Of a DNA stretch of 64,000 bases, positions 38,672-55,007 are shown one piece after another. The stretch's first letter is position 1; every line of letters begins with the position of its first letter. The stretch comes from Candidatus Woesebacteria bacterium (GTDB lineage: Bacteria > Patescibacteriota > Microgenomatia > UBA8517): positions 112,387 through 176,386 of the forward strand of contig DMZH01000003.1 of assembly GCA_003484955.1 (NCBI GenBank). The letters are read 5' to 3'. The position numbers and the translations under genes were made by a program. The notes under the pieces were generated by a model that was not told the origin of the DNA, did not search any database, and worked only from the letters and a program-made list of their open reading frames with translations.

Positions 38672-38734
38672 CCCTGATAATTATATCGTTTGTTACTTGC
38701 AAAATGAAATTTAGGGTGTTATATATTTACTACC

Positions 38735-39247: not shown

Positions 39248-39248
39248 A

Positions 39249-39321
39249 TTTACAAGTTTCTACAACACGCAAGGAAACCCAAAGTTGTAAATTTGGGCAT
39301 GTTTTTACAAGTTGTTACAAC
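39249..39321. promoter_or_regulatory. Repeated TTTACAAGT(N4)TACAAC motifs (two copies plus an internal inverted copy) at the 3' boundary of the minus-strand fibre operon.
   Basis: TTTACAAGTTTCTACAAC at 39249-39266. TTTTTACAAGTTGTTACAAC at 39302-39321. Inverted AGTTGTAAATTT at 39283-39294. The same motifs occur at 54746-54832. Confidence 0.4.
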
Positions 39322-40136
39322 GTACTCCCCGATTCTGTCGCTATTGGTATTTCCACTACCCCGCTTGGCGTGGCACTTAGTTCGTCAAGAATTGTATTTA
39401 CAGATTGAGTATCTGCCGACTCTGTACTTTCCGAAAGTGGCGCCAGATTTAATAAAAACAAATCGTCAACCGATAGAGAAAACTTTTCCTCTGCAAGACT
39501 TTCTGCGGCTAAGTAAATATCTCCATTTTTTATTTTAGGATTCCTGGCCTTTTCCCCGGTTGTAACATCAACCGATTTATTGTCGTTAATGGAATAGACA
39601 ACCGCTCTCCAGGTGTCTGTTATGTCACGTCTTCCATAACTAATGTAGTCGTCGGAAAAATCAGGATTTAGAGAAGTATCCCCTGTTGTTAATTGTTTGG
39701 TCGATAACCCGTCAAAGAAAAATATTTGCCAAGTATTCCCATCCCACCCTTCCCAAACAACCCTTCCTTTATAATCAACCCTAGGATTAAGGTTGGTCCC
39801 CAAAAAAGTAAGCTGAGTTTTTGAATCCGAAATTGTATCATAAAGAAAAATCTGCCCTGCCTCGTTGTAATCGGAAACATATGCCACATATCTGCCATTC
39901 GTGAACGGGCTGCGGCTATTCCGACTTTCGTTCGTGATAAAGTGTTTGCTTCCCTGATAGGTATAAAAAACTTGTTGATACCCGCTAACCACTTCAGTGC
40001 CAACTTGCAAATCGTTTGCCTTTATATAGTCAGATAAACCTGCGTCTAGCTGTTGGGCAAGAATTGGTCTAACTCCAATAAAAAGCAATCCCGCAATTAA
40101 TAATGAAGCTGACCACGAAACAAATATTTTTCGCAT
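39315..40136 (-). CDS. Secreted PD40/TolB-like beta-propeller repeat protein.
   Basis: Signal peptide. Repeats such as GRYVAYVSDYNEAGQIFLYD and GRVVWEGWDGNTWQIFFFD. Confidence 0.45.
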   Translation of the reverse strand: MRKIFVSWSASLLIAGLLFIGVRPILAQQLDAGLSDYIKANDLQVGTEVVSGYQQVFYTYQGSKHFITNESRNSRSPFTNGRYVAYVSDYNEAGQIFLYDTISDSKTQLTFLGTNLNPRVDYKGRVVWEGWDGNTWQIFFFDGLSTKQLTTGDTSLNPDFSDDYISYGRRDITDTWRAVVYSINDNKSVDVTTGEKARNPKIKNGDIYLAAESLAEEKFSLSVDDLFLLNLAPLSESTESADTQSVNTILDELSATPSGVVEIPIATESGSTL

Positions 40137-40144
40137 ACAAAAAC

Positions 40145-42925
40145 TTAAAACTGTGTTATACCTTGCAAGATGTTTATTAAATTAACCGCAAAGGCGTGGA
40201 GACTGTCAGCCTGACTTTGGGTCAATTTATTACCTCTTTGACCCTCAACTTCATTAATAAAAGCGTTTAGGGCATTTGTTGCTTCTGTATTTGAATTATT
40301 ACTCGCTGCTGACAGAGCATCTAAAGCTCTCTGTAATTTTACATCTAAACTGTTCTCTATCCCCTGTTGTAGATTTAAATCTTCTACGGCATTAACTAAA
40401 TCTAGAACGGTTGGCTCTGTCATTACTGCAAAATCAGAAAAGCTTGTTGTAACCCCACAGATTATGTCATCAGTTGTGTCCAGTGAAGTTGTTATATTAG
40501 CCCAATTTTGTCCATTAAAGTGCATCAACTTTAGCTTGGATTCACTTCCTTGAAACGCCGTATCATCATAACTAAAACAAATAGTTATATTTCCAGTAAA
40601 CGTCGCTGTCGTAGAAATATTATAGTAAGTCGCCGGATTACCCAGCCTAAAACCGCTTGGAGGTTGGGTTCCAGAAGTACTTGTTGTTACTGTTGTCACT
40701 CCACTGGTATTAACTTGAGAAAAAGCCAGTGTTGTTCCATCGAGAGCAACTGACACACCATCTCCCACGGGAGTATTTGTAAAACTTAATTTTGACAAAA
40801 AGGCATCACCTAGACCAAGGCGATTAATTTGGATTGCGCCAGGGGTAATCGGGAAGTCTGGTGAGGAAGCACCACCGACAACATAGGCATTCAAGGAATT
40901 ATCTAAAACTATGCCATTGGCAAAATCACCCAAAAAACCACCCAAATAAGTTGAGAAGAGTAAACTCGAACCAGATTCATTAAGTTTTACAACAATAGCA
41001 TCACTATTGCCTTTATAGGCGCTTTGGATTGAATCCAAAAGTGGAAAATTTGATGAAGAACTTTGCCCAGCAAGATACAAATTACTTTGGGAATCTATTG
41101 CTATACTTCTCACTATATCGGAGCCATTTCCTCCTAAATAGGTTGAATAACCAAAGTTGCTTCCATCTGGGATAATTTTTGCTACAAATGCATCAGTATC
41201 ACCTCCGGCAAAAAGAGGCTGAAAGGAGCTACTTGTTGTAGGAAAGTCTAAAGAAGTTGTAACTCCCACCAAATACGCATTGTCACTCGAATCAACTTTA
41301 ATGCTCCTGACTTCGTCTCCTCCAGTCCCCCCTATAAGGGTAGAATATACAAATTGAGAATTGGGAATATCTATTACACTTATAAAACCATCTCTGTCAC
41401 CACGGTAAGTTTGCAGAGGATTTCTAACGGGATAGTTAGAAGATGCGGTGTAGCCAGCTACGTAAACCAGACCCGATTGACTTACATCAATCCCATATCC
41501 AATTTCATGCCCACTCCCCCCTAAATAGGTGGAATATTCAAGGTTGGAACCATCACTACTAATCTTCGCCATAAACGCATCTGTATCGCCCCCAGGGTTT
41601 GTCTGAAGGGCATTTTGTGTGATGGGAAGGTAATATGCAGAACCTGTGATGTAAACATTATTATAGCTATCTAGAGCAATAGCATAAGCACCAGACTGGG
41701 AATAGCCAAAAAATGTTGAGTAAATCAGCCCTGTCCCACTACTGTTTATTTTAGTTACAAAAACATTGCCAGCACCCCCAAGAAGGATTGGCTGGATTGC
41801 GTTAAAAGTGGGATAGTCAGGTGAGTTTGTCTCTCCAGCTATGTAGGCATTGCCACTTGTGTCAACGGCTATTGTCCTGCTTTGATCAGCCCCAGAACCA
41901 AGACTGCCGCCAATGTAAGTCGAATACAACAAAGATGACCCATCCGAACTAATCTTTGAGACAAAAGCATCAAAATTACTACCGGCAGAATGTGCAACTT
42001 GATAGGAACCCGGTGTTACCGGAAAATCGGAGGAGGTGGTCAACCCTGTAAGATAAATATTGCCCGCAGGATCAATCGCTACTGCATTGGATGAATCCAG
42101 ATTGGAACCCCCTCCCAAAAAAGTACTATACGTCAAAACAGGATCGATGTAGAGGGTGCTATTTAAGTCATAATCTCCAATTTGAAAACCAACATTTCCT
42201 CCACTGACAACATACCCTACATCCACCTGTTTACGATGCCCATCAATGACTTGCCAAGCCACTGGTGACTGTTCTGTCAAGACATACCCCATACCAGGAA
42301 CTTCGATTTCCAAACTTTCATTTTCCTGGTTTACTCGCTCACTAGTCGATCCATCATATTTCCACCGTATGGAATTTGGAGAGGCCCCTGGATCTACTTG
42401 ATAGGTACCCTTGAAAATCCCTTTGTCCCCACTATAATAAAGGTTTATACCTGGATATAGTTGCTTATACTCGATTATTCTATATGTAGGGATTCCTGTT
42501 CTCCAATCCTTGGATTCATTCCCTATAAAGAAATTAGCTGTCCCAGGTAAAAGGTCTTTTCCTGTTATTTCAGGGGCCGGATTAGCTCCCAAAAAAAACA
42601 TACTTAAAACAGTACTGTTTGTCTCCGTTAAGTCTGAAGCTTTAACACCCAAACTAGAAGTTCCCCTGTTACCTTTTCCTTTAGATATTAGGGATAGTGT
42701 TATTCCACTCTTGGTCACAAATATTGTTCCACCAGGTAGCTGGGTACGAAAAACAACACCCGAACTGAACTCGCCTTGATTTGGAATAAACGACAGTGGT
42801 AATTTTTCGAAGCTTTTTGTTTCCTTAAAAGAGCTTCCCGATCTCAAATTTAGAAATATCCAACCCAGAAACGCCAAAGAAAACGCTAATATAAGCACGG
42901 AGTAGACTTTATATTTTGTTTTCAT
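40145..42925 (-). CDS. Large secreted SBBP (beta-propeller repeat) protein with a C-terminal beta-sandwich and helical tail.
   Basis: Multiple repeats of the type 'YSTYLGG.G.D....IA.D..GN.Y..G.T.S.DFP.T...Q......DAFV.K....GS.L.YST'. Confidence 0.6.
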   Translation of the reverse strand: MKTKYKVYSVLILAFSLAFLGWIFLNLRSGSSFKETKSFEKLPLSFIPNQGEFSSGVVFRTQLPGGTIFVTKSGITLSLISKGKGNRGTSSLGVKASDLTETNSTVLSMFFLGANPAPEITGKDLLPGTANFFIGNESKDWRTGIPTYRIIEYKQLYPGINLYYSGDKGIFKGTYQVDPGASPNSIRWKYDGSTSERVNQENESLEIEVPGMGYVLTEQSPVAWQVIDGHRKQVDVGYVVSGGNVGFQIGDYDLNSTLYIDPVLTYSTFLGGGSNLDSSNAVAIDPAGNIYLTGLTTSSDFPVTPGSYQVAHSAGSNFDAFVSKISSDGSSLLYSTYIGGSLGSGADQSRTIAVDTSGNAYIAGETNSPDYPTFNAIQPILLGGAGNVFVTKINSSGTGLIYSTFFGYSQSGAYAIALDSYNNVYITGSAYYLPITQNALQTNPGGDTDAFMAKISSDGSNLEYSTYLGGSGHEIGYGIDVSQSGLVYVAGYTASSNYPVRNPLQTYRGDRDGFISVIDIPNSQFVYSTLIGGTGGDEVRSIKVDSSDNAYLVGVTTSLDFPTTSSSFQPLFAGGDTDAFVAKIIPDGSNFGYSTYLGGNGSDIVRSIAIDSQSNLYLAGQSSSSNFPLLDSIQSAYKGNSDAIVVKLNESGSSLLFSTYLGGFLGDFANGIVLDNSLNAYVVGGASSPDFPITPGAIQINRLGLGDAFLSKLSFTNTPVGDGVSVALDGTTLAFSQVNTSGVTTVTTSTSGTQPPSGFRLGNPATYYNISTTATFTGNITICFSYDDTAFQGSESKLKLMHFNGQNWANITTSLDTTDDIICGVTTSFSDFAVMTEPTVLDLVNAVEDLNLQQGIENSLDVKLQRALDALSAASNNSNTEATNALNAFINEVEGQRGNKLTQSQADSLHAFAVNLINILQGITQF

Positions 42926-42969
42926 TCTCCTATATTATTATAGCCCCTTGGTAACATCTTTCAAACAAA

Positions 42970-44766
42970 TCAATTTGTCCAATAAAAACCCTGTTTAATT
43001 CCCGATGAGAATGTACTGCCGTGACGAAGCAAGTCTCCTGTCCCCGGCTCAGTTGTCAGTGCTGGACAGTTATTCCATCCTGCAAGGCTAGTCGTTCCGG
43101 TACCATCAGCTGTTGTCTCCACTAATCTGAACAAATATCGAGTTGATGACACCGAACTTGTCCCAACAATATGGAAGTCAAATTCAATATCTTGCCCCGT
43201 TGCAGAAGTACCAGTTGGGGTATTGGCGGGCTTTACCTTTGAATATGTCTCAAGCATGTCGGTTCCTGTCAATTTTGCAACCGTTAAAGTCGTATCGTCA
43301 GCAACCGACGATGAAGCGTATTCCCAGGTGGCACTAGGAGCTACATCTGTCCACGAACCAGCAGAACAGTCAGAATCGGTACCAGCCCGAAACTGAAGTT
43401 TAAAGTATTTAGAACCTCCCGTAATAGTTGCAGTATTTACAGTTATATTTGTCCTTAATCTAAGTTCCTGGGCGGTGTCGGGCGGATCGTTTGCAATGGG
43501 TATGATCGTAATTCCTGTATTCTCAGCTAGATCTATTACTGAGACTGCGGACCAAGGATCGGTTACGTTTTCTGTGTCATTATCAACATACCACCTGTAA
43601 ACATTTTGAGTAAAAGTAGCAGATGCTGACTGAAGCGTTGTCGTTCCCGAAATCGCTACTGCGGTTCCCGGAGTTACCGTTCCGGACGACACAGTCATCT
43701 CTGTTGATGGGTTGGCAATTTGAATTTCTATCGTCTGTGTAGCTGAAGCTCCAGCACCTACATCCAAGACAACATATACACAAACCTCTGTTGTACCGAC
43801 TGACATTGAACCGGTTATCGTAGATTTTTCGGAAGCGTTGAAAGTGGCTCCGGTACCAAAAAGTGTCTCCGTACCGCCGTATGTTTCACTGGAACAGGTA
43901 GTGGCAGCTGTTTCATAATAAATATCAGCATTGGAAAGATTGCTGTTGGCGTTTACGGTTCCTGTATCGGTAATTATGACTTGAGTGACCGTTGCCGTGT
44001 TGATATCTGTCGCGAAGGTAAACGCGCCACCAACATAATTATTGGTAGAACCTATATTCATGGTAGAGGTTTGTGTACCTGTCGTACCAACTGTCATTAT
44101 TGGAAGAGTGTAAGTAATAGTAATTCTTACAGAATCCACATAGGCAGTAGTTGCCGCACCACCCCCTGAAACTTTAACGTTTTTGGCCGAAATCGCCGCA
44201 CCAAAAGTTGAGCCATTTATATCCGCTGCCGTCCAAGTATCTCCCCAGAGATTGGCAGCTCCGCCGTATGACACAAAAGTGTCCGTTGTTGTCCAATTAC
44301 TAATATTTGAAAGATCTGTGGCGCCAATAGCGTCAGTTTTAACTATCCTCACTGCATTATCCTGAGTTTCTCCAGTCCCGCCGTCAAGGCTGTCGCTTTT
44401 TTCCCATTCAACCGTAATACCGTCTATTCTGGCGTTTGAGGGAACAGAAAAGTTAAAACCGGTTGCTTTTATGTAATTGCTTACTCCTGTATTTTTTGTA
44501 AGAACTACGGATGCCTTGCTGTCATTGGTGGTAGTAGCATTCCCAGGAGTAGTCCAAGCAAGTGTGCCGATTCCTGCGTCGTTAACAGCCGTCGAAGCAT
44601 AACTTGGTCCGGCAGTAGCTGCCATTGCTTCCTGAATTTTTGGGGGGAAAATTCCGAACCCCGGAATTGAAATTGCAGGATAGCCGGTTAGAAGCCAGGA
44701 GAGAACCAAAAAAGTTACAAAAAAACTCTTGGTTATTCGAATAGTTTTTTTGTTCAATCTAATCAT
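42970..44766 (-). CDS. Secreted Thr-rich protein (598 aa), function unknown.
   Basis: Signal peptide with AMAA cleavage-like site. T/S/G-rich beta-type sequence. Sits 8 bp downstream of the giant gene. Confidence 0.45.
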   Translation of the reverse strand: MIRLNKKTIRITKSFFVTFLVLSWLLTGYPAISIPGFGIFPPKIQEAMAATAGPSYASTAVNDAGIGTLAWTTPGNATTTNDSKASVVLTKNTGVSNYIKATGFNFSVPSNARIDGITVEWEKSDSLDGGTGETQDNAVRIVKTDAIGATDLSNISNWTTTDTFVSYGGAANLWGDTWTAADINGSTFGAAISAKNVKVSGGGAATTAYVDSVRITITYTLPIMTVGTTGTQTSTMNIGSTNNYVGGAFTFATDINTATVTQVIITDTGTVNANSNLSNADIYYETAATTCSSETYGGTETLFGTGATFNASEKSTITGSMSVGTTEVCVYVVLDVGAGASATQTIEIQIANPSTEMTVSSGTVTPGTAVAISGTTTLQSASATFTQNVYRWYVDNDTENVTDPWSAVSVIDLAENTGITIIPIANDPPDTAQELRLRTNITVNTATITGGSKYFKLQFRAGTDSDCSAGSWTDVAPSATWEYASSSVADDTTLTVAKLTGTDMLETYSKVKPANTPTGTSATGQDIEFDFHIVGTSSVSSTRYLFRLVETTADGTGTTSLAGWNNCPALTTEPGTGDLLRHGSTFSSGIKQGFYWTN

Positions 44767-44774
44767 TTCAAAGC

Positions 44775-47700: not shown

Positions 47701-50700
47701 CCTGAAAGAGTGGCACCGTTAATTGTTGATGAGGCTGATATTGTTGTAATACCACTTAATGCGCCTGAATTAATAATTAAACCGTTTATTGTATTTGTGG
47801 AGGTGGGTGCAGATATTGCACTCGTGGCGGATAAACCGGTAAATGCGCCACTTGCAGGTGTTACCGCTCCAATTGTTGCACCGTTAATTGTTCCCCCTGT
47901 AATTTGTCCTCCGGTGATAAAAACGTTACCCGCAGATTGAGTAGCAATTGTTCCTAAGCCTGATATATCGGTTGTTGAAATACTCAATAATGTTTTAACT
48001 TGAGCGGCAGTTAAAGCAATCGGAGTTGCGGAACTTCCAGTGTTGTTTCCGATAATTGAGTTGGCTGCGAGATTAGCCATCTTTCCCAAAGTTACTGCTC
48101 CATTGGCAATTGTTACAGCAAAAGATCCCGTACCAGAACCTGTTACATCACTTGTTAGACTAATTGTCTGATCTCCTGTGTTTGTTCCGGATGAACTGCC
48201 TGAAAAGTTTGATCCCAACAAAGTTCCAGTAACTGACAAATTCCCTGTTGTTCCCGCATCAGTTAAGGTAAGAAGAGTGTTGGGTGTAGCATTACTGTCT
48301 TTGATAGTTAACACCCCCGCGGCATCGCCTGCCCCCAAAGTCAATACCGGAACCGAGCTCGAGAAAAGTAATGGTGAGGCAGATGATAATGTAATTCCAT
48401 TTGATGTTGTTGCTCCCCTGCCCGTAACTGACAATAGAGTATCGGCTTCGGTAGTAGATAAATTAAGAGTTCCACCAAGAGAAAGGGAGCCTCCGCCTGA
48501 GAGAATTCCACTGGTGTTAATAGTAACCGAGGAGTTGGTCAAGCTGGAGTTGCCGATATTGGATAGTGTGTTGGTAGAACCCGATATAGAAAGACCCGTT
48601 GCGGTTCCTCCAATCGTCACACCACTAACTTGCCCCCCTGTTATGAATACATTACTTGCACTCTGAGTGGCTATTGTACCTAAGCCCGACACATCAGACG
48701 TTGAAATTCCAAGTAAAGTTTTGACCTGAGAAGCAGTTAAAGCAATCGGAGTTGTGGAACTTCCCGTATTATTTCCAATTATCGAATTGGCAGCCAAGTT
48801 TGCCATTTTACCTAAAGTAACTGCTCCTGAAGCAATAGTTGTAGCAAAAGATCCGGTACCGGTTCCGGTCACATCACTGGTTAATGTGATTGTCTGGTCT
48901 CCTGTGTTGGTACCGCTTGATGTTCCTGAGAAATTGGATGCACCAATTGTCCCTTCAACAGAAAAGTTGGCAAGTCCTGTACTACTGTTGGTAATGGTTA
49001 AAGTTCTATCAAGAGCATTATTAAAGTCAAATGTCAGGGAGGCTCCGCTTAATGGAATATTTGTGTCTGAGATAGTCAAGTCACTGAAAGTCCAAGCCCC
49101 TGATATTGATTGTATTTGGTCAGTCCTTGTAATTTTTGAATTGGTGTAATCAATTGCTATGTTTCCCTCTCCTGCCGGGGAATTTGTCGCATCAAAATCG
49201 GCTGCAAGAAAATCAACTGTTGTAGCGCTTGTAACCACATCAGCATCACCAATTTGGATGGTTGATATTCCTCCTCCTGCACCTGTGTCATCAGTACCGC
49301 AAGTTAAGACTCCTGCCACTGTCTCCAGAGCAGAACAGTTTGCAAATGAGCTATCGTACAATGTTATGCCAGCTCCACTACTACCCGCTTTGATTGTCAA
49401 AGTATCTGTATTAGTATCACCCAGGGTGGTATTTCCATTAGAATCAAGGATTGTGAAGTTACCACCTGCTCGGGTTGTACCACCAATGGTGATATTGTTA
49501 ATAGTTCCACCCACAAGTTGACCTCCTGTTATATAAACGTTGCTGGCAGACTGTGTTGCGATGGTGCCAAGGCCTGAGATATCGTTTGTTGAGATACCTA
49601 GTAAGGTCTTAACTTGGGAAGCTGTAAGTGCGATTGGTGTGGCAGCAGAACCAGTATTATTACCGATTATTGAATTTGCTGCCAGGTTGGTCATCTTACT
49701 TAGAGATACTGCTCCGTTTCCGATCGCGGTTAAGCCGGTATTATTTATTGATATATCTCCCGTAACGGCAACACCTGTTGCAATGTTTGATCCATTACCC
49801 ACAAAGATGTTGGCGCTTGTTAAGGTTTTTGAAAGCTTTCCCGAAAGAGAGGCTGTAAGATCTGTTTGATCATCAAGTAAGCCCGTGATTGCTCCCCAGG
49901 CAACTCCGGATGAGTTGGTAATCCAGGAAAGAGCAGAGCCGTTTGTACCCAGAACCTTGCCACTGTTGCCTGTTTGATCGGGCAGAACTTTGGTTGGGGA
50001 AAGGGATGTAATCCAGCCGGGATCAGCGTATGAACCGGTTGAAAGAATTATATTTCCCGTTGTCACTCCGTTGACGGCTACCGTTGATAATGATCCTCCG
50101 GAAATGGAACCACCCGAAATTGTGGCACCATTAATCGATACTAAACCACTAAGCTGTCCACCGGTAATAAACACATTGCTGGCAGATTGAGTAGCAATTG
50201 TTCCCAATCCCGAAACATCTGAGGTTGAAATCCCCAATAAAGTTTTAACTTGGGATCCGGTCAATGCGATTGGGGTGGCGGAGGATCCAGTGTTGTTTCC
50301 GATAATTGAGTTGGCTGCGAGATTGGCCATTTTTCCTAAAGTTACAGCTCCACCGGCAATTGTGGTAGCAAATGATCCTGTGCCAGATCCCGTAACATCA
50401 CTGGTTAAGGTAATCGTTTGGTCTCCTGTGTTGGTACCGCTTGATGTTCCTGAGAAATTGGATGCGGATATTGTCCCGTCGACTATGACATTGGCAACCT
50501 GGGAAGTCGTTGAATTAAGAATATTAAGTGTCCTCGTGGTGGCCCCGGTTAAATCAAATATCGTATTCCCGCCCGAGAAAGTAATTGTGGGGGTCGTTCC
50601 TGAAAAAGTAATCGGGGTGGCGGATGATAAAGTCAATGCTGTTGCAGTTGAAGCTCCGCGACCGGTGACCGATGAAAATGTATCCGCCTCAGTTGCCAAA

Positions 50701-52913
50701 AGATTTAATGTTCCCCCAAGAGATAAACTTCCGCCGCCCGAGAGAATTCCACTGCTATTAATGGTAACTGAAGAATTACTAAGACTGGAATTGCCAATGT
50801 TGGATAAAGTGTTTGATGCCCCCGAAATTGTTAAACCGGAGGCTGTACCGGCAATTGTTACCCCACTAATTTGCCCTCCTATTACATATATATTGCTGGC
50901 AGATTGAGTAGCTATTGTTCCCAATCCAGAAATGTCCGATGTTGAAATGCCCAGCAAGGTTTTTACCTGAGCTCCTGTTAGGGCAATTGGAGTCGCGGAA
51001 CTTCCTGTATTATTTCCGATTATTGAGTTAGCCACAAGGTTGGCCATCTTGGAAAGGGATATTGCACCATTTCCGATAGTTGTACTAATTGTGGTTGCCC
51101 CGCTTCCTGAAACGTCCCCACTTAAAGTAATTGTTTGGTTACCGGTTAAATAATTTGAATTATTGGTCCATTGAGAAATATTTCCTGACGTAAAGTTGGC
51201 AACTGAAAGACCGGATATGGTGTTACTTGCTCCCGAGATAGTTTTATTGGTTAAAGTGTCGCTTGTTGCCCGACCGATAAGAGTGTCTGTAGATATCGGC
51301 AAGGTTAGAGTTCCGGTATTACTAATTGTTGAAATAATAGGAGATGTACTAAACGTCCAAGTCCCGGTAACCGACTGAGTTTGATCACTTCTGACTATTT
51401 TTGAGTTGGTGTAATCAATCGATAAATTCCCCTCGCCTGCGGGAGAATTCGTCAGATCAAAATCAGCTCCCAAAAAATCAATTGTAGTTGCAGATGAAAC
51501 TACTGTTACATCATCTGCTTGAAGTGTTGAAATTCCCCCTCCCGTTCCTCCTGCATCAGTTGCACAGTCCCAGGAGGAGGTACTATCCGTCCACTTTAAA
51601 AGTTCGCCGTCGCCGCAAGTCCGGATTAAAGAAAGTCCTGACGAAGTGGCCACAAGCCCTCCCCCCGATTGAATATTCAAAGCCAAACTAGTAGCACCCG
51701 AGGTTCCTCCTCCGGTCAAACCATTTCCCGCGGTTACACCGGTAATTGTCCCTGATCCTCCGGATGTTCCACAGGACCCCCAAGTAAAGCCCCCGGTACT
51801 ATTGTTGTAAGTTAAACATTGTCCGCCGGTTGGATCATTCGAAGATGCCAAATCGGATTCATTTATGGAGCTATCGGAAACGCCTACCGCTGTAATTCCA
51901 GAAAGATCAACTGAAAGCGTTGCAATGTTATCAAGTGTGGCAACTGTTAATTTAGAACTATCGCTTTTTATGTCGGTTATTCCCTGAATTATCTCGCCTA
52001 CCGTCTGTTGATAAACACTATTGCCGCTTGAGATTGATTGGGCAACACTCTGAATATAATTCACAACTCCTTGAATTGGAGATGTCAAAATGGCACCGCC
52101 TGACGTTCCACCAGCAAAAGCCCATGTTCCCGTACTCTCGTCAAAGATCGGCTTATTGAATCCCGTTGGCTGATAATCAGAAATTCCCAAAACATCAATA
52201 TTCGCAGAAAGCTCATAAATTGAATTGAAAAGGGAGATTGCGTTCTTGGCAACCGTACTTTCTACTTCGGTTGTTTTCTGAGCGCCGGTTTTTATGACGA
52301 CATTTAAGATTTTACCGTTCTTATCAACCGTTCCTGCAACTACAAATCCGGTATCATATGTCTGTCCCACAAAGTCACCAATCAGCCTTCCCTCTTCAAC
52401 CTTTCCTTGAAGAATCTTAATTGCATAGGAGGTGTTGCTATCTAAAACCAAATTGGCAATCATTCTATCCATAATTTGGCCCACAGCTCTTGTGCCGTCT
52501 TTCAAATAAAAAGTGGTTATGATCCCATCACTAAAACTATCAAGCGCTTGGTCACCTGATAAGAATAAAATTCTTGCTCTATTAACAAATTGGTTGCCGT
52601 CCCCTTTTACCTCTCCGCTGATAACTTTATATACAGAAAATGAACCGTTTGATAAAAGTGCTGTCCCGACAACCTTATCATCAAAAAATGAATTTTCTAC
52701 TCTTTCTTCGTCAAGATAGCCTGATCTGGTCTCGACATCTTTGACCATTTGAGAGATGTTCGATGTCAAAAATCCCTTTTGTCCAGCAAGGTTTAGAAAA
52801 TATCCCCCTCCAACAGCCACCGCTGAAGTAATCGCAAGAACCAATACAACGACTAAGGGTATTACCCCGTCGTTATACTTTTTCTGAGACTGATATTTTG
52901 TTATCCGTAACAA
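44775..52913 (-). CDS. Giant (2712 aa) N-terminally membrane-anchored repetitive fibre protein.
   Basis: TM at aa 17-40. Five or more ~150-aa repeats (..AISLSKMANLAANSIIGNNTGSSATPIALT..QVKTLLGISTSD.SGLGTIATQSASN..). Four Cys-pair 'C.DG.LLKW....W.C..D.GG.GGG.ST' motifs. Many 'GAITGATATNTINGIIINSGA' repeats. Unique beta-rich C-terminal domain. Confidence 0.8.
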   Translation of the reverse strand: MLRITKYQSQKKYNDGVIPLVVVLVLAITSAVAVGGGYFLNLAGQKGFLTSNISQMVKDVETRSGYLDEERVENSFFDDKVVGTALLSNGSFSVYKVISGEVKGDGNQFVNRARILFLSGDQALDSFSDGIITTFYLKDGTRAVGQIMDRMIANLVLDSNTSYAIKILQGKVEEGRLIGDFVGQTYDTGFVVAGTVDKNGKILNVVIKTGAQKTTEVESTVAKNAISLFNSIYELSANIDVLGISDYQPTGFNKPIFDESTGTWAFAGGTSGGAILTSPIQGVVNYIQSVAQSISSGNSVYQQTVGEIIQGITDIKSDSSKLTVATLDNIATLSVDLSGITAVGVSDSSINESDLASSNDPTGGQCLTYNNSTGGFTWGSCGTSGGSGTITGVTAGNGLTGGGTSGATSLALNIQSGGGLVATSSGLSLIRTCGDGELLKWTDSTSSWDCATDAGGTGGGISTLQADDVTVVSSATTIDFLGADFDLTNSPAGEGNLSIDYTNSKIVRSDQTQSVTGTWTFSTSPIISTISNTGTLTLPISTDTLIGRATSDTLTNKTISGASNTISGLSVANFTSGNISQWTNNSNYLTGNQTITLSGDVSGSGATTISTTIGNGAISLSKMANLVANSIIGNNTGSSATPIALTGAQVKTLLGISTSDISGLGTIATQSASNIYVIGGQISGVTIAGTASGLTISGASNTLSNIGNSSLSNSSVTINSSGILSGGGSLSLGGTLNLLATEADTFSSVTGRGASTATALTLSSATPITFSGTTPTITFSGGNTIFDLTGATTRTLNILNSTTSQVANVIVDGTISASNFSGTSSGTNTGDQTITLTSDVTGSGTGSFATTIAGGAVTLGKMANLAANSIIGNNTGSSATPIALTGSQVKTLLGISTSDVSGLGTIATQSASNVFITGGQLSGLVSINGATISGGSISGGSLSTVAVNGVTTGNIILSTGSYADPGWITSLSPTKVLPDQTGNSGKVLGTNGSALSWITNSSGVAWGAITGLLDDQTDLTASLSGKLSKTLTSANIFVGNGSNIATGVAVTGDISINNTGLTAIGNGAVSLSKMTNLAANSIIGNNTGSAATPIALTASQVKTLLGISTNDISGLGTIATQSASNVYITGGQLVGGTINNITIGGTTRAGGNFTILDSNGNTTLGDTNTDTLTIKAGSSGAGITLYDSSFANCSALETVAGVLTCGTDDTGAGGGISTIQIGDADVVTSATTVDFLAADFDATNSPAGEGNIAIDYTNSKITRTDQIQSISGAWTFSDLTISDTNIPLSGASLTFDFNNALDRTLTITNSSTGLANFSVEGTIGASNFSGTSSGTNTGDQTITLTSDVTGTGTGSFATTIASGAVTLGKMANLAANSIIGNNTGSSTTPIALTASQVKTLLGISTSDVSGLGTIATQSASNVFITGGQVSGVTIGGTATGLSISGSTNTLSNIGNSSLTNSSVTINTSGILSGGGSLSLGGTLNLSTTEADTLLSVTGRGATTSNGITLSSASPLLFSSSVPVLTLGAGDAAGVLTIKDSNATPNTLLTLTDAGTTGNLSVTGTLLGSNFSGSSSGTNTGDQTISLTSDVTGSGTGSFAVTIANGAVTLGKMANLAANSIIGNNTGSSATPIALTAAQVKTLLSISTTDISGLGTIATQSAGNVFITGGQITGGTINGATIGAVTPASGAFTGLSATSAISAPTSTNTINGLIINSGALSGITTISASSTINGATLSGGTLSGGSLSGGTYSGTALSGTGSFTITGGTAASETLTLVSTSNITKGDIQFFSASNKITSAGALTIVGALSASNVSGSNTGDQTITLTGDVTGSGTGSFATTIAGNSVALTTDTTGDYVATLTSGNGISAAATGEGSAPTISLAALTADWNQTGAFDIVLVNTSSELKMLESGVTPTLYGILDIGDLSTSDSTFTFSGSSGTVVTSSNAAAQLSAWDQTASDDLTTSNYSTTLDSIYVNVGESPTGGDISGSFSGGLTIAANSVALGTDTTGNYIASATSNGGLTMTGTEGGSLGIDLPAATDALSVTTSSGSGLELLVSGVTLLQGCSDGQLLKWNETADTWGCSADNTGAGGGVSTIKEGGTNIVTSAVALNYVAADFIITDETAGVAGITIDYANSKIIRKSDSAVTFDAGATFSTTGNLNGVTINTATGASGNSGAITIQTGGTSVSGTSGSVTIDTGAGVTSNGAITIGGTNASNLAIGRATVTTTVNGTLAAGGVLISGGSINGTTLGASTPSTGAFTTLSATGAITGATATNTINGIIINSGAVSNVSTLGLSGAITGATATNTINGLIINSGALSGITTINASGQITSTLVTGTAPFVVASTTNVANLNASSLNGATFAAPGSIGSTTPGSGAFTTLSATGAITGATATNTINGVIINSGAVSNVSTLGLSGAITGATATNTINGLIINSGALSGATTLGLSGAITAATATNTINGIIINSGAVSGVSTLGLSGAISGATATNTINGMIINSGAVSGVTTLGASSTVTIGSGGNTYTFNPAAAPALAGTARPDRREELVPEFPGAVLTGSGTGTMTSDFCAASAGVGGLTATNTTVCNTSGDTHNYYNWTTTQGTPQTYTVYLKWRVPDNFSAWDTSNSIQAYAKRSDATNGHVNIKVYDTANALNNAGGTEIAGAANTWIQNGINISGGTWTAGSYMTIQIDVTAAATGGITDVGEISLNYFTSN

Positions 52914-52914
52914 C

Positions 52915-54738
52915 TTATTTATTTTTCCTTAAGAATGTAACGAGTGTTAAACTTCCGATAGTGGTTATAATAAAAAATAGAAATGTTGCAAAACCCATCA
53001 AACTATATATCCTTATAGCGGCTGACTGGGATTGTGCAGCCACAACTCCCCAATTGTAATCGTCAACATTTTTATAAGCCTCAAGCTTCAAGACTCCTTC
53101 ATAATCATAAGTAACCAATGATCCGCTCGTTCCCGAAACGGCTTTCATTACCAAACTATCAGAGGGTGCCTTTATTATTGTATCTTGAGGGTCGGGATTT
53201 AGAATATAATTTCCACTGGAATCTGCTACCGTAAATGAACTTGTTCCAGTGTGGTCAATTTGTCCTAATTGTCTTTGAAGTTCAAAGATATCAACCGAGC
53301 CTAAAATCACGCCCAAAAATTTGCCGTCTGTACCAATTATAGGAAGTGAGATTAAGATCGAGGGTTCAATTCCCGGAGAGTTGGGTTTGATAAAACCCGT
53401 CACAAAAACTCTGCCTGTCTTCGCTGGTTCACTAAAATAATCCCTATTGGAAATGTCTACATTCTGACTTTGAAAATAAAACGGATAAGTATCAACAATC
53501 TTACCGTTTCCGTCTGTAACAACCATACGGACAAAAGAATTATTTGAAGACAGATAGATTTGTTTAAGTTCACTATCTAAATCAGCAGTAGACCCTTCGA
53601 TCAACAATTTGGACAAATTGTTGTCGCTTAGAAAAGCTGAAAGGGTTAGTGTGTTTCTGTCCATGAAATTTTTAGTCACCTCGGATGCTAACTCAACCCT
53701 TCCGTTCATCTCGTCTAAGATGATAGTTTGAAAAGAACGATATGCCATCCGAAGCATAAATGATCCGATAAAGAAAACACCCAAGATCCACAAGAAACAA
53801 ACCAGAGCCTCTTTTTTAGTCTTTGTTTTAAAAGTATCAAATTCACTGGCGAAGGGATAGACAAACGAAAATGTTCCTAGGGTTATTCCAAAAATAGATC
53901 TACCCCAGTACCCACCTGTAAAAGACATTGCGGAGTAAATAAGCGCTATTGTTCCGGCTATAAAGGAGGTTATTATCATGAAATATTTACTTCCTTTTAA
54001 AGCTTTAAGGCTCAAGAATAAAAGTAAACAAAAAAATGCAAACCAAACCGCAGCAAACACGTCCCGGGAGACTATTCCGGTACGAAAAAGAATGGAGAAT
54101 GTAGAAGAACCTGGCCAAATAAGAAATCCTAGACCAATCAAAACAAACAAAAGGTTTATAAAAATTAGATATTGCAAGCGATAATTTATCCTTTTTATAG
54201 CCGAGAGTATAAGAACAACCGACAGCGATAAATATCCTACCGAAGAAACAGATTTTTGAGACAAAAATATTCCCGCTAGAACCAATGACAAAACGCCAAT
54301 GTAAAGATATAAGGCTGTATGTTTGTGGCCTTTATTAATCATGAAAGTATCAAAACCAAGTAAAAGTGCCCCCCCAATAAAAAGAAGAATATTTACAACG
54401 TTCAAATATGGCGCAATTTCCATTAATGGCTGTTGGGCATTTGCATAAACTGGATTTGTGAATTGGGAAAAACCGAGACCAATTGCAAGAAATCCTATAA
54501 ACCAATCAAAAATACTGAGTGATTTTTTAGGATCAGGCGCCGAAGATGGTGTCTCCTGAAGACTTTTACCTCTTTCCTGAAGAAGTCTGTTCACTTCGCT
54601 CGCCGGTATTCTAAACCTCCCCTCGGCACCCAACCTGACAGCTTTAATGCTGCCGTTTTCCAAATATTTATAGACCGTGTTTGTAGAAAAACCAAGAAGA
54701 TTTGCTACCTCTTTTACTGTGTAGGTCGATTTGGGCAT
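52915..54738 (-). CDS. Membrane-bound one-component regulator: N-terminal HTH (excisionase/HTH_17-type), about 8 TM helices, an extracytoplasmic Cache-like sensor domain and a C-terminal TM.
   Basis: YTVKEVANLLGFSTNTVYKYLENGSIKAVRLG...RFRIPASEV is the HTH. A long polytopic region follows. The Cache-like stretch is (..VTDGNGKIVDTYPFY..DISNRDYF..GVILGSVDIFELQ..). Its stop overlaps the giant gene start by 1 bp. Confidence 0.65.
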   Translation of the reverse strand: MPKSTYTVKEVANLLGFSTNTVYKYLENGSIKAVRLGAEGRFRIPASEVNRLLQERGKSLQETPSSAPDPKKSLSIFDWFIGFLAIGLGFSQFTNPVYANAQQPLMEIAPYLNVVNILLFIGGALLLGFDTFMINKGHKHTALYLYIGVLSLVLAGIFLSQKSVSSVGYLSLSVVLILSAIKRINYRLQYLIFINLLFVLIGLGFLIWPGSSTFSILFRTGIVSRDVFAAVWFAFFCLLLFLSLKALKGSKYFMIITSFIAGTIALIYSAMSFTGGYWGRSIFGITLGTFSFVYPFASEFDTFKTKTKKEALVCFLWILGVFFIGSFMLRMAYRSFQTIILDEMNGRVELASEVTKNFMDRNTLTLSAFLSDNNLSKLLIEGSTADLDSELKQIYLSSNNSFVRMVVTDGNGKIVDTYPFYFQSQNVDISNRDYFSEPAKTGRVFVTGFIKPNSPGIEPSILISLPIIGTDGKFLGVILGSVDIFELQRQLGQIDHTGTSSFTVADSSGNYILNPDPQDTIIKAPSDSLVMKAVSGTSGSLVTYDYEGVLKLEAYKNVDDYNWGVVAAQSQSAAIRIYSLMGFATFLFFIITTIGSLTLVTFLRKNK

Positions 54739-54745
54739 TTTGGCA

Positions 54746-54832
54746 GTTTTTACAAGTACTTCTAGGGTTGTTTTTACAAGTTTTTGTAAGTATTCACAAC
54801 TCCAATACTATATATAAAAGTTTTCACAACTC
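54746..54832. promoter_or_regulatory. Promoter/operator region of the fibre operon with direct repeats: GTTTTTACAAGT x2 and TTCACAACTC x2.
   Basis: GTTTTTACAAGT at 54746-54757 and 54770-54781. The 14-mer TGTTTTTACAAGTT at 54769-54782 is identical to 39300-39313. (A/T)TTCACAACTC at 54792-54802 and 54822-54832. A TATATA box lies between them. Confidence 0.4.
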
Positions 54833-54909
54833 TTGTCAAGCCTGAATTTGTAAAAACATGAGGCTAAAAATGATATAATATTTGAGGTTCCTGAAAAACA
54901 GTGAAAACT

Positions 54910-54980
54910 GGGCTCGTAGGCAAACGGTATACCGTATCATTCGCATTGATAAGTTCCGGGTTCAATTCCCGGCGAGTCCA
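54910..54980 (+). tRNA. tRNA-Ala (anticodon CGC).
   Basis: Manual fold. Acceptor GGGCTCG/CGAGTCC including the diagnostic G3:U70 pair. Discriminator A73. Anticodon stem TATCA/TGATA with loop TTCGCAT. T-arm CCGGG-TTCAATT-CCCGG. The D-stem has one C:A mismatch. Confidence 0.7.
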
Positions 54981-55007
54981 CAACTGGAGAGAAAAATCAA
55001 AAGGTAC

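What the first reader, a model, noticed from the sequence alone, without database searches (positions are those of the whole stretch)
39249..54832. Same TTTACAAGT-containing motifs bracket the 15.5-kb fibre operon at both ends, with a tRNA-Ala just outside
At the 5' end, 54746-54832, there are GTTTTTACAAGT x2 and TTCACAACTC x2. At the 3' end, 39249-39321, there are TTTACAAGTTTCTACAAC, TTTTTACAAGTTGTTACAAC and an inverted AGTTGTAAATTT. The 14-mer TGTTTTTACAAGTT occurs identically at 39300-39313 and 54769-54782 in the same orientation. A tRNA-Ala gene lies 170 bp beyond the 5' repeat. This can be read two ways. They could be operator sites for the operon's HTH regulator, bound at both promoter and terminus. 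Alternatively they could be att-like direct repeats of a tRNA-adjacent horizontally acquired island. A random 14-mer match somewhere in 64 kb is not improbable. Its position in both short flanking intergenic regions, with a second motif copy at each, is what makes it notable.
Basis: seen in the sequence. Interest (0 to 1): 0.6.

Follow-up and report, generated by a model that had tools for sequence, protein, structure and literature searches.

The report
Phased operator repeats bracketing an operon
The TTTACAAGT repeats at both ends of this 15.5-kb operon are real and are most likely docking sites for the operon's own membrane-anchored sensor-regulator. The same motif sits next to this regulator gene across a whole class of ultra-small (CPR) bacteria, so they are not scars of a mobile island.

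Summary
TTTACAAGT occurs four times in 64 kb, always on the + strand. All four copies lie in the two short gaps that flank the minus-strand operon 54738->39315. The identical 14-mer alone is at chance level. The clustering, the 10-bp phasing and the conservation are not.

The window comes from a Woesebacteria-like CPR genome. The operon's first gene encodes a 607-aa membrane protein: an N-terminal Xis/BldC-type winged helix (HTH_17), about nine TM helices, an extracytoplasmic dCache domain and a final TM.

In about 45 orthologous loci from Microgenomates (23-90% identity), arrays of ACTTGTAA(A) spaced 10, 22 or 32 bp sit between a TTGACA promoter and this gene's start codon. A second array lies downstream. 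In other clades it sits directly after the regulator gene, inverted or direct. In the window's clade it sits at the operon's 3' end, and four further lineages show this. Far flanks hold no arrays.

Best reading: these are operator arrays for head-to-tail binding by the operon's own regulator, which probably represses its own promoter. The role of the 3' array (looping, bridging or roadblock) is inferred only.

The att/island reading is rejected. The tRNA-Ala is divergent, its position is conserved among relatives, and no integrase was detected. Protein-DNA binding is untested.

The parts
52915..54738 (-). First gene of the operon: a 607-aa membrane one-component regulator. It has an N-terminal HTH_17 (Xis/BldC-type winged helix, residues 5-56), a disordered linker, about 9 TM helices, a dCache_1 domain (341-567) and a C-terminal TM. 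It is the proposed binder of the arrays.
   Evidence: Pfam HTH_17 8e-12 and dCache_1 1.4e-20. TIGR01764 excisionase-family domain 5e-12. AF2 model with pLDDT 82 and its helix map. Hydropathy analysis. PDB and Foldseek hits to Pukovnik Xis and BldC.
54811..54839 (-). Inferred sigma-70-type promoter of the operon: TTGACA (54839-54834), a 17-nt spacer, then TATATA (54816-54811).
   Evidence: Read from the sequence. TTGACA and the -10 block are invariant or near-invariant in the alignment with relatives of 40-90% identity, and present in nearly all 41 distant loci. The scan tool did not call it because its rule requires T at position 6 of the -10 hexamer. No TSS data.
54747..54801 (-). 5' operator array in the inferred 5' UTR. 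Sense-strand sites are AGTTGTGAA (54801-54793), ACTTACAAA (54791-54783), ACTTGTAAA (54781-54773) and ACTTGTAAA (54757-54749). The first three are 10 bp apart and the last follows after 24 bp. The array ends 10 nt before the ATG.
   Evidence: Matrix scores 18.8 and 17.4 bits. ACTTGTAA is invariant in the seven-species alignment. Equivalent arrays occur in 32 or more of 44 loci at a strict threshold.
54823..54831 (-). Extra AGTTGTGAA copy inside the promoter spacer. It is weak and not conserved in the 57% and 70% relatives.
54845..54856 (+). Inverted high-scoring site AATTTGTAAAAA just upstream of the operon's -35 box, between the divergent operon and tRNA promoters. It is semi-conserved in relatives.
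   Evidence: Matrix score 15.7 bits.. Alignment columns 50-65.
54910..54981 (+). tRNA-Ala(cgc), transcribed divergently from the operon. It is a conserved syntenic neighbour, not an att target.
   Evidence: ARAGORN. Rfam tRNA 57.7 bits. The same divergent tRNA-Ala(cgc) is present in L007 and L009-L013, and absent in L016 and L030.
39247..39267 (-). 3' array, distal block. On the sense strand it reads GTTGTAGAA-ACTTGTAAA (two sites 10 bp apart). It abuts the stop codon of the convergent 170-aa gene.
   Evidence: Matrix score 13.8 bits. Conserved as GGTTGTACTAACTTGTA in L009 and as multi-copy blocks in L186 and L184.
39302..39322 (-). 3' array, proximal block. On the sense strand it reads CGTTGTAAC-AACTTGTAAAAA (two sites 10 bp apart). 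Its first site overlaps the TAA stop (39317-39315) of the last operon gene.
   Evidence: Matrix score 18.8 bits, the maximum possible. Retained in L010 although the cargo genes there are replaced. Conserved in L009, L186 and L184.
39278..39297 (+). Weak hairpin CCCAAAGTTGTAAATTTGGG followed by CATGTTTTTA. It contains the inverted motif copy (39283-39294). It may be a terminator for the convergent 170-aa gene. It is not conserved in L009.
   Evidence: Terminator-like call: 1 found against 0.7 expected, so not significant. RNA fold z = -1.9 on the minus strand and -0.4 on the plus strand. L009 sequence.
39315..52913 (-). Cargo genes bracketed by the arrays. They encode a 2712-aa giant protein (44775-52913), a 598-aa protein, a 926-aa DUF7948 + SBBP beta-propeller protein and a 273-aa beta-propeller-repeat protein. 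They are presumed surface or secreted proteins. Gene content varies between relatives.
   Evidence: ORFs. Pfam and NCBIfam. No PDB match for the giant protein. Cargo differs in L007, L009, L010, L184 and L188.
38735..39247 (+). Conserved 170-aa gene convergent on the operon. It is a flank marker and not part of the system.
   Evidence: 399 homologues. Where this gene is not next to the operon, no array follows it (L185, L187).

Best explanation
The repeats are operator arrays. They are short direct repeats (sense-strand core ACTTGTAA, consensus AACTTGTAAAAAC) spaced one DNA turn apart. They are proposed to be bound by the N-terminal Xis/BldC-type winged-helix domain of the operon's own first gene product. 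That protein is a polytopic membrane protein whose only other recognisable module is an extracytoplasmic dCache ligand-binding domain.

Shown here:
- The arrays exist and are phased.
- Within the DNA sampled they are confined to this locus.
- They are conserved next to this gene family across Microgenomates.
- The domain has the Xis/BldC fold.

Inferred:
- Several HTH domains line up head-to-tail on each block of 2-3 sites, as BldC and Xis do.
- The 5' array lies between the inferred TTGACA-17-TATATA promoter and the ATG, so occupancy most likely represses the operon and thereby the regulator itself.
- Ligand binding to the Cache domain changes occupancy, through oligomeric state or through release of the roughly 58-aa HTH via the disordered linker.

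The second array seems to be a general part of the design. It lies directly after the regulator gene in other clades and at the operon's 3' end here. The least-supported step is its role. It may cooperate with the 5' array by bridging or looping, since both arrays would be held at the membrane by the same protein. It may instead act as a bound-protein barrier between the convergent transcription units.

The identical 14-mer simply reflects one perfect consensus site at each end.
For: 1. Locus specificity in the window. All four TTTACAAGT copies and 7 of 10 TTYACAAST hits lie in the two gaps. The five best hits of a matrix built from other species also fall there.
2. Deep conservation. Arrays sit between a TTGACA promoter and the ATG of the orthologous gene in L007, L009-L051 and L188, at 23-90% protein identity. 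The 8-mer ACTTGTAA has 108 hits in 687 kb, 53 of them within 300 bp upstream of the gene. ACTTGTAA is invariant in the seven-species alignment while the surrounding non-coding DNA diverges.
3. Clusters of at least two sites occur only in four places: upstream of the gene, just downstream of it, within about 2.7 kb upstream, and at the operon's 3' end. None occur in the farther flanks.
4. Phasing. Same-strand site spacings peak sharply at 10 bp (59 cases), 22 (21), 32 (7) and 42 (3). These are close to whole helical turns.
5. The 3' array recurs in L010, L009, L186 and L184, which is the same genome as L013 with a 14.5-kb operon. It is absent after the 170-aa gene when the operon is not adjacent (L185, L187).
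6. The binder is plausible. HTH_17/TIGR01764 score above their curated cut-offs. A profile hit to Pukovnik Xis has E = 7e-7. The AF2 model of the domain superposes on Xis 4j2n and on BldC-DNA complexes 6ama/6amk (target-normalised TM 0.8, rmsd 1.3-2.0 A). BldC binds 9-bp direct repeats head-to-tail as 2-4 or more cooperative protomers, about one DNA turn apart (PMC5859096; PMC11963761).
7. The recognition-helix region (F-S-T-N-x-x-Y) is invariant across the family, matching the invariant motif.
8. Shorter proteins with the same HTH but no Cache domain (152 aa in L108, 249 aa in L096) also carry ACTTGTAA arrays just upstream.
9. Arrays occur in both orientations relative to neighbouring genes. 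This fits recognition of double-stranded DNA.
Against: - No binding, expression or TSS data exist. The promoter is inferred from consensus and conservation only, and the scan tool did not call it.
- All comparison loci were retrieved through the regulator gene. 'Locus-specific' therefore means relative to flanks of up to 10 kb. No whole genome could be scanned, so another protein with a genome-wide regulon is not excluded.
- The motif matrix was seeded with the consensus first seen in the window.
- The position and orientation of the second array vary between clades. One lineage (L188/L185) has no 3'-terminal array. A single common mechanism for the second array is therefore uncertain.
- A membrane-tethered protein reaching two sites 15.5 kb apart has no direct precedent that I know of.
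- The window's 3' region also contains a weak terminator-like hairpin that could account for the inverted copy.
- The TM count is 8 by hydropathy and 9 by AF2, so the topology is inferred.
Confidence: 0.7

Rival explanations
1. The arrays are bound by a different DNA-binding protein. This could be a small soluble HTH_17 paralogue or a nucleoid-associated or global factor. In that case the membrane HTH-Cache protein is only a target gene.
For: Small HTH_17 proteins with the same recognition helix exist in related organisms. No whole genome could be scanned for a wider regulon. No binding data exist.
Against: In every locus the arrays follow the gene that encodes this HTH, whatever the neighbouring genes are. 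The 64-kb window encodes no paralogue of the HTH. The small paralogues carry their own arrays, which suggests autoregulation by whichever protein carries the domain.
Confidence: 0.15
2. The repeats act at the RNA level. They would be a motif in the 5' and 3' UTRs of the operon mRNA, bound by an RNA-binding protein or forming a structure that controls translation or stability.
For: In the window's clade both arrays lie in the sense orientation within the presumed transcript. The last copy ends 10 nt before an ATG that has no Shine-Dalgarno sequence. Folding z-scores are mildly negative, about -1.9.
Against: In about 18 loci the downstream array is inverted, so the RNA sequence would differ. The sharp 10/22/32-bp spacing matches the DNA helical repeat. 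No Rfam family matches. A z-score of -1.9 is not compelling. Some arrays lie in convergent gaps or upstream of other genes.
Confidence: 0.06
3. The repeats are att-like direct repeats marking the ends of a horizontally acquired island inserted next to tRNA-Ala.
For: The repeats are direct and bracket a 15.5-kb block next to a tRNA. Cargo differs between close relatives, and L010 carries an rve_3 transposase gene inside the block. GC is 0.45 in the giant gene against about 0.40 elsewhere.
Against: - The tRNA is divergent, with its 5' end facing the block, and the repeats share no sequence with it.
- No integrase or recombinase domain is present in the five operon proteins.
- Each 'repeat' is a multi-copy phased 9-mer array, not a single core.
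- Synteny (Rho, LysM/M23, tRNA-Ala, regulator ... 170-aa gene, Wzy_C/TPR) holds at 90, 70 and 57% identity. The tRNA adjacency holds down to 40%.
- In L010 the cargo was exchanged inside the arrays, leaving a stub of the last gene.
- The motif accompanies the regulator gene in lineages with no tRNA nearby.
- The other giant gene in the window (29-36 kb) has the same raised GC.
Confidence: 0.02
4. The match between the 5' and 3' ends is coincidental. The 5' copies would be promoter or UTR features. The 3' copies would be parts of a bidirectional terminator in an AT-rich gap.
For: A 14-mer match alone is at chance level. A terminator-like hairpin overlaps the inverted copy.
Against: The 3' blocks are conserved as GTTGYA-N3-ACTTGTAA composites in L009, L186 and L184, while the hairpin is not conserved in L009. 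The best possible matrix score (18.8 bits) occurs at both ends. No shuffled window gave a single phased pair.
Confidence: 0.03

Closest known systems
BldC of Streptomyces (MerR-like/HTH_17 winged-helix regulator; PDB 6AMA, 6AMK)
   Same: The winged-helix fold matches (Foldseek target-normalised TM 0.79-0.85, rmsd 1.3-1.4 A). The target DNA consists of short AT-rich direct repeats about one helical turn apart, in blocks of 2-4, as in BldC's whiI and smeA operators. The sites lie at promoters.
   Different: BldC is a 68-residue soluble protein with no sensor. Here the domain is the N-terminus of a 607-aa polytopic membrane protein with an extracytoplasmic Cache domain. The repeat period is 10 bp rather than 9. 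The core is a well-defined ACTTGTAA rather than the loose AATTxxxx(C). Identity in the Foldseek alignments is only 24-28%. Binding is untested.
Excisionases / recombination directionality factors of the HTH_17 family (mycobacteriophage Pukovnik Xis 4J2N, lambda Xis, RdfS)
   Same: This is the closest solved sequence relative (E = 1e-4 with the single sequence, 7e-7 with a profile). Several of these proteins form cooperative head-to-tail filaments on DNA (lambda Xis; RdfS also in crystals), and BldC does so on phased direct repeats.
   Different: No integrase and no att core were detected. The gene is syntenic rather than mobile. The domain is fused to a membrane sensor. The arrays lie at a promoter and at an operon end, not at attP/attR arms.
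Membrane-bound one-component regulators (ToxR, TcpP, CadC; from my own knowledge of the literature)
   Same: The overall logic matches: a cytoplasmic N-terminal DNA-binding domain, a membrane anchor, and an external sensor domain that couples an outside signal directly to promoter binding. ToxR also binds direct repeats.
   Different: Those proteins use an OmpR-type winged helix (Trans_reg_C) and a single TM helix. They usually activate from sites upstream of -35. This protein has HTH_17, about 10 TM helices, a dCache sensor, sites downstream of the promoter and a second distal array.
Dual-operator looping systems (lac O1/O2/O3, gal OE/OI, lambda OL-OR; own knowledge)
   Same: Two clusters of the same operator bracket a transcription unit, which suggests cooperative bridging.
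   Different: Known bacterial repression loops span about 0.1-3 kb. Here the distance is 15.5 kb in this clade and about 2 kb in the others, and the proposed bridging protein is membrane-embedded. Looping is pure inference.
RacA (B. subtilis chromosome-anchoring MerR-like winged helix; PDB 5I44)
   Same: RacA is among the top structural matches. It is a winged-helix protein whose role is to tether specific DNA sites to the cell envelope (own knowledge).
   Different: RacA binds GC-rich inverted repeats as a dimer and is anchored through DivIVA, not through its own TM helices. There is no evidence here for a chromosome-organising role.

Membership tests
HTH_17 / excisionase-family winged-helix DNA-binding domain (Pfam PF12728, TIGR01764) | The sequence matches the family model above the curated cut-off | tested here: met
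   PF12728 scores 45.7 bits against a cut-off of 27. TIGR01764 scores 46 bits against 28.8.
HTH_17 / excisionase-family winged-helix DNA-binding domain (Pfam PF12728, TIGR01764) | beta-alpha-alpha-wing-alpha fold that superposes on solved members | tested here: met
   AF2 model of residues 1-65 has pLDDT 85. The best PDB matches are Pukovnik Xis and BldC, with target-normalised TM about 0.8 and rmsd 1.3-2.0 A.
BldC-type regulators (head-to-tail multimers on direct repeats) | The target DNA carries short direct repeats about one helical turn apart, in variable number | tested here: met
   Site spacings of 10/22/32/42 bp in 46 loci. The window's blocks hold 2-3 sites.
BldC-type regulators (head-to-tail multimers on direct repeats) | The protein binds those repeats cooperatively in a head-to-tail manner | not testable with these tools
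   This needs EMSA, footprinting or a co-structure.
BldC-type regulators (head-to-tail multimers on direct repeats) | Small stand-alone winged-helix protein without effector or dimerisation domains | tested here: not met
   The protein is 607 aa with about 10 TM helices and a dCache_1 domain.
Excisionase (RDF) of an integrative element | A partner integrase, with att sites whose arms carry the Xis sites | tested here: not met
   None of the five operon proteins or the flanking proteins tested has an integrase domain. The locus is syntenic across species.
tRNA-adjacent genomic island with att direct repeats | The direct repeat derives from the 3' end of the tRNA gene, and the island lies 3' of the tRNA | tested here: not met
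   The tRNA-Ala is divergent and its 5' end faces the operon. The repeats share no sequence with it.
tRNA-adjacent genomic island with att direct repeats | The island is present or absent among close relatives, with an empty site | tested here: not met
   The regulator gene, the arrays and the flanks are present at 90% and 57% identity. The 70% (L007) and 40% (L013/L184) lineages add the 5' array with its tRNA side and the 3' array with its distal flank, respectively. Only the interior cargo varies. The sampling did not look specifically for an empty site.
tRNA-adjacent genomic island with att direct repeats | Composition deviates from the host genome | tested here: inconclusive
   GC is 0.45 in the giant gene against about 0.40 elsewhere. 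The window's other giant gene shows the same rise.
ToxR/CadC-type membrane-bound one-component regulators | N-terminal cytoplasmic DNA-binding domain, membrane anchor and external sensor in one polypeptide | tested here: met
   Domain order HTH(5-56), TM helices, dCache(341-567), TM. The topology is inferred, not measured.
ToxR/CadC-type membrane-bound one-component regulators | OmpR-type (Trans_reg_C) winged helix and a single TM helix | tested here: not met
   No Trans_reg_C hit; the domain is HTH_17 instead. There are about 10 predicted TM helices.
Known cis-regulatory RNA families (Rfam 15) | A match to a curated covariance model | tested here: not met
   Only the tRNA matched in 38500-55500 at E <= 1.

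The most novel reading that the evidence does not exclude
The HTH_17-Cache protein may be a membrane-embedded DNA tether as well as a regulator. By binding phased arrays at both ends of the operon, it would pin a 15-kb giant-gene locus to the membrane as a closed, topologically isolated loop. In other clades the pinned segment would be the 2-kb regulator gene. This would couple an extracellular signal sensed by Cache, possibly from a host cell, to the transcription and co-translational export of giant surface proteins in CPR episymbionts. A variant of the idea is signal-triggered cleavage in the disordered linker, which would release a BldC-sized domain of about 58 aa that forms filaments on the arrays.
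Probability: 0.12. Interest if true: 0.8.

Novelty: new variant of a known kind. Interest (0 to 1): 0.55.

Why it matters
Gene regulation in CPR/Patescibacteria is almost uncharted, because these organisms are mostly uncultured and very few regulator-operator pairs have been proposed for them.

This finding gives a concrete, testable pair that is conserved across Microgenomates:
- a defined DNA word (ACTTGTAA at 10-bp phasing);
- a defined domain (the first 60 residues of a membrane Cache sensor);
- a defined target, the sensor's own gene plus the adjacent giant surface-protein genes.

Giant surface proteins are prime candidates for host attachment in these episymbionts (my own inference). A sensor that reads an external ligand and directly controls them would offer an entry point to how CPR cells detect hosts.

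Mechanistically, it would extend BldC/Xis-type head-to-tail DNA binding to a membrane-tethered signalling protein. The two-array bracket also raises the testable possibility of membrane-anchored looping.

The core claim can be tested in vitro with synthetic DNA and a 60-residue peptide, with no need to culture the organism.

Tried and rejected
1. A scan of the metagenome collection for ACTTGTAANNACTTGTAA was meant to find further regulon members. Only 5 of the 80 loci returned carried the HTH. The rest were unrelated sequences, satellites or chance matches from all kinds of organisms. It was uninformative about a regulon, although it did reveal the short HTH_17 paralogues with arrays.
2. It found only one chance hit.
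3. The promoter/terminator scanner did not call the TTGACA-17-TATATA promoter because of its rule requiring T at position 6. It called one non-significant hairpin at the 3' end.
4. The RNA reading was checked and not supported: no Rfam family matched and folding z-scores were only about -1.9.
5. The island reading was tested through composition, tRNA orientation, integrase content and synteny. It was rejected.
6. The idea that the 3' array belongs to the convergent 170-aa gene was rejected. Homologues of that gene that are not adjacent to the operon lack any array (L185, L187).
7. A Foldseek search of the full-length model against AFDB50 failed because the library was unavailable.
8. Attempts to name the cargo proteins gave nothing that supports 'fibre'.
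9. One 3' alignment (A3) used wrong L009 coordinates. The correct L009 3' sequence is.
10. A literature search found no description of HTH_17-Cache membrane regulators or of this motif.

Full report
**Observation.**
- TTTACAAGT occurs four times in the 64-kb window, at 39249, 39304, 54749 and 54773. All four are on the + strand. Only 0.88 copies are expected, and none of 100 shuffles reaches four.
- The looser TTYACAAST has ten hits, seven of them in the two gaps.
The window holds 40 distinct direct repeat pairs of 14 nt or more, which is about the chance level. With two mismatches allowed, the 14-mer count is not significant.
- What is not chance is the clustering and the phasing. Copies sit 10 bp apart at 39249/39259 and at 39304/39314. 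They sit at 54773/54783/54793, and again at 54823. One inverted copy lies in each gap, at 39283-39294 and at 54845-54856.

**Anatomy.** The operon is on the minus strand, running from 54738 to 39315. In the sense direction the motif therefore reads ACTTGTAAA.
- The first gene (52915-54738) encodes a 607-aa protein with an N-terminal HTH_17 domain (excisionase family) and a dCache_1 domain.
- An AF2 model (pLDDT 82) shows, in order: the winged helix (residues 4-54), a disordered linker (59-72), nine long helices, the Cache fold (about 340-570) and a last TM helix. Hydropathy analysis finds eight or nine TM segments before the Cache domain.
- If the HTH is cytoplasmic and the Cache domain is outside, an odd number of TM helices is required. 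Nine fits. This topology is inferred, not measured.
- The remaining genes encode a 2712-aa protein and a 598-aa protein without any significant family match, a 926-aa DUF7948/SBBP beta-propeller protein, and a 273-aa beta-propeller-repeat protein. The label 'fibre' cannot be confirmed.
- Upstream on the minus strand lies TTGACA, a 17-nt spacer and TATATA (54839-54811). The array fills the stretch between this inferred promoter and the ATG.
- tRNA-Ala(cgc) at 54910-54981 is transcribed divergently.
- The 3' array fills the 67-bp gap between the operon's stop codon and the stop codon of a convergent 170-aa gene. Its first site overlaps the operon's TAA.

**Origin.** The regulator protein is encoded identically on a 750-kb contig from Rifle sediment and on several other assemblies. 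Its homologues are annotated as Woesebacteria and other Patescibacteria.

**Close relatives.** Three loci keep the same neighbourhood on the promoter side: L010 (90% regulator identity), L007 (70%) and L009 (57%). That neighbourhood is Rho, a LysM/M23 peptidase, divergent tRNA-Ala, then the regulator gene. Where the distal side was sampled (L010, L009), it continues to the convergent 166-170-aa gene, and in L010 beyond it to the Wzy_C/TPR gene.
- The upstream gap shows classic footprints. TTGACA, the -10 block and ACTTGTAA are invariant, while the spacers drift.
- L009 keeps two GGTTGYA-N3-ACTTGTA composites at its operon's 3' end.
- L010 has entirely different cargo: a CBM protein, an SH3 protein, a DUF5667 protein and an rve_3 transposase. 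It nevertheless keeps the 3' array and about 35 nt of the lost last gene. The exchange therefore happened inside the arrays, not at them.

**Distant relatives.** A scan of GTDB species genomes with a family alignment returned 41 further full-length loci. They come from Woese-, Gottesman-, Ames- and Roizmanbacteria and from unclassified Microgenomates, at 23-49% identity.
- Nearly all show ACTTGTAA-type arrays between a TTGACA promoter and the start codon.
- The exact 8-mer occurs 108 times in 687 kb, and 53 of those lie within 300 bp upstream of the gene.
- With a weight matrix built from these loci, clusters of two or more sites appear in only four places:
  - just upstream of the gene;
  - just downstream of it (+1.86 to +2.18 kb, in about 18 loci), usually inverted and in front of the giant gene;
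  - within about 2.7 kb upstream, next to a glgA-like gene and a roughly 320-aa gene;
  - at the 3' end of the operon in the window's clade.
- No clusters occur in the farther flanks.
- Same-strand spacings peak at 10 (59 cases), 22 (21), 32 (7) and 42 bp (3). These are close to whole helical turns.
- Applied back to the window, the matrix places its five best hits (13.8-18.8 bits) in the two gaps. That explains the identity.

**The 3' array.** I used homologues of the convergent 170-aa gene to reach the operon ends in other genomes.
- L186 has five phased copies at its operon's 3' end.
- L184 belongs to the same genome as L013 (40% regulator identity, 14.5-kb operon). It has a three-site block plus a further site.
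- In two genomes the 170-aa gene is not next to the operon (L185, L187). No array follows it there. The array therefore belongs to the operon and not to that gene.
- In the L188/L185 genome (39%), the second array lies between the regulator gene and the giant gene, in direct orientation. No array lies at the operon's end.
- A downstream second array is thus general, but its position and orientation depend on the clade.

**The binder.**
- The nearest solved sequence relative of the HTH is the mycobacteriophage Pukovnik excisionase 4J2N (E = 1e-4 with the single sequence, 7e-7 with a family profile).
- An AF2 model of residues 1-65 (pLDDT 85) superposes best on that Xis and on the BldC-DNA complexes 6AMA/6AMK (target-normalised TM about 0.8, rmsd 1.3-2.0 A).
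- BldC binds 9-bp direct repeats as head-to-tail cooperative multimers of 2-4 or more protomers. Lambda Xis and RdfS form comparable filaments (PMC5859096; PMC11963761).
- The F-S-T-N-x-x-Y segment and the G-R-F-R wing are invariant across the family. This parallels the invariant DNA word.
- Two shorter proteins carry the same HTH but no Cache domain (152 aa in L108, 249 aa in L096). Both also have ACTTGTAA arrays directly upstream.
- The window encodes no paralogue of the HTH.

**Mechanism proposed.**
- Shown: there is a phased array next to a gene family whose only DNA-binding module has the direct-repeat-binding fold. The array is locus-specific within the DNA sampled and deeply conserved.
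- Inferred, step 1: HTH domains bind one per site, head-to-tail, on blocks of 2-3 sites.
- Inferred, step 2: the 5' array lies downstream of the promoter, so occupancy represses the operon and the regulator's own gene.
- Inferred, step 3: the Cache domain modulates occupancy in response to an external ligand.
- Inferred, step 4: the second array cooperates with the first by bridging or looping at the membrane, or it acts as a bound-protein barrier between convergent transcription units.
- I put 0.7 on the operator assignment. My confidence in any particular role for the 3' array is much lower.

**Rivals.**
- Another protein binding the arrays cannot be excluded without biochemistry (0.15).
- An RNA-level element is unlikely (0.06). 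The arrays work in both orientations, the spacing matches the DNA helical repeat, no Rfam family matches, and folding z-scores are weak.
- The att/island reading fails each defining test (0.02). The tRNA orientation is wrong, the repeats hold no tRNA-derived sequence, no integrase domain was found, synteny is conserved, and the motif is present where no tRNA is nearby.
- Coincidence or a terminator-only explanation is contradicted by conservation of the 3' blocks, while the hairpin itself is not conserved.

**Comparison with known systems, and novelty.**
- Functionally the system looks like BldC/Xis-type direct-repeat binding grafted onto the logic of membrane-bound one-component regulators such as ToxR and CadC.
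- It is not a member of the BldC family in the strict sense, because it is not a small stand-alone protein.
- It is not an excisionase, because it has no integrase or att partner.
- It is not ToxR-like in its domain type, because it has HTH_17 rather than Trans_reg_C and about ten TM helices rather than one.
- I found no description of this protein family or of this motif in the searchable literature.
- I therefore rate it a new variant of a known kind. It is an ordinary category (a regulator and its operators) in an unusual architecture and an under-studied lineage, with an unexplained two-array bracket.

**Limits.**
- There are no binding, expression or TSS data.
- All comparison loci were retrieved through the regulator gene or its neighbour. 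'Locus-specific' is therefore relative to 10-kb flanks only.
- The complete genome could not be scanned.
- The metagenome-wide pattern scan was swamped by unrelated matches.

Noticed in passing
L010:5416-11842 compared with window 39315-52913: In a 90%-identical relative the whole cargo is replaced by genes for a 978-aa CBM_4_9 protein, an SH3_3 protein, a DUF5667 protein and an rve_3 transposase. The breakpoint lies about 35 nt inside the 3' end of the window's 273-aa gene. The segment between the arrays is therefore a hot spot for cargo exchange.
   Followed up: partly
window 45400-50950 and 31000-32700: Both giant genes contain long exact internal DNA repeats. Examples are a 47-mer at 48895/50419, a 39-mer at 48036/50286 and a 26-mer at 31677/32283. 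These indicate tandemly duplicated protein modules.
   Followed up: no
window 53362-53376 and 54958-54972: The 15-mer GGGTTCAATTCCCGG of the tRNA-Ala T-arm also occurs inside the regulator's coding region, where it encodes PGIEP on the minus strand. It is one of about 20 chance-level repeats and does not delimit anything.
   Followed up: partly
window 54739-54748; the same position in L007, L009, L013, L016, L050, L051 and others: A conserved CTGCC lies a few nucleotides before the regulator's start codon across Microgenomates (for example AAACTGCCAAAATG). No Shine-Dalgarno sequence is present. In some Gottesmanbacteria the same GCTGCC lies just inside the ORF (ATGGCTGCC). Its function is unknown.
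   Followed up: no
L035, L036, L038, L025, L048, L022, L041, L050 (-1.1 to -2.7 kb from the regulator gene): In Gottesmanbacteria-type loci, additional ACTTGTAA arrays lie upstream of a glgA-like glycosyltransferase gene, or in the convergent gap between it and a roughly 320-aa gene. This suggests a small local regulon.
   Followed up: partly
L108:2163-3018 and L096:713-1500: Short HTH_17 proteins (152 and 249 aa) have the same recognition helix but no Cache domain, and they carry their own ACTTGTAA arrays. L108 has a second four-copy array about 400 bp upstream.
   Followed up: partly
window 60948-60959 (+): An isolated strong motif match, GATTTGTAAAAA (13.0 bits), lies inside a glycosyltransferase gene (60191-61450, minus strand). 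It is a single site with no phased partner and is probably chance.
   Followed up: no
window 54871-54879 (+): The tRNA-Ala appears to use an extended -10 promoter (TGATATAAT) about 30 nt upstream. Its reverse complement is an invariant block in the alignment of relatives.
   Followed up: partly
L187:8861-9946: In a complete 1.08-Mb Woesebacteria genome (CP066686.1), the 170-aa gene homologue is preceded by a 361-aa dCache_1 protein for which no HTH_17 hit is on record, and no arrays are present. This may be a rearranged or decayed version of the locus.
   Followed up: no
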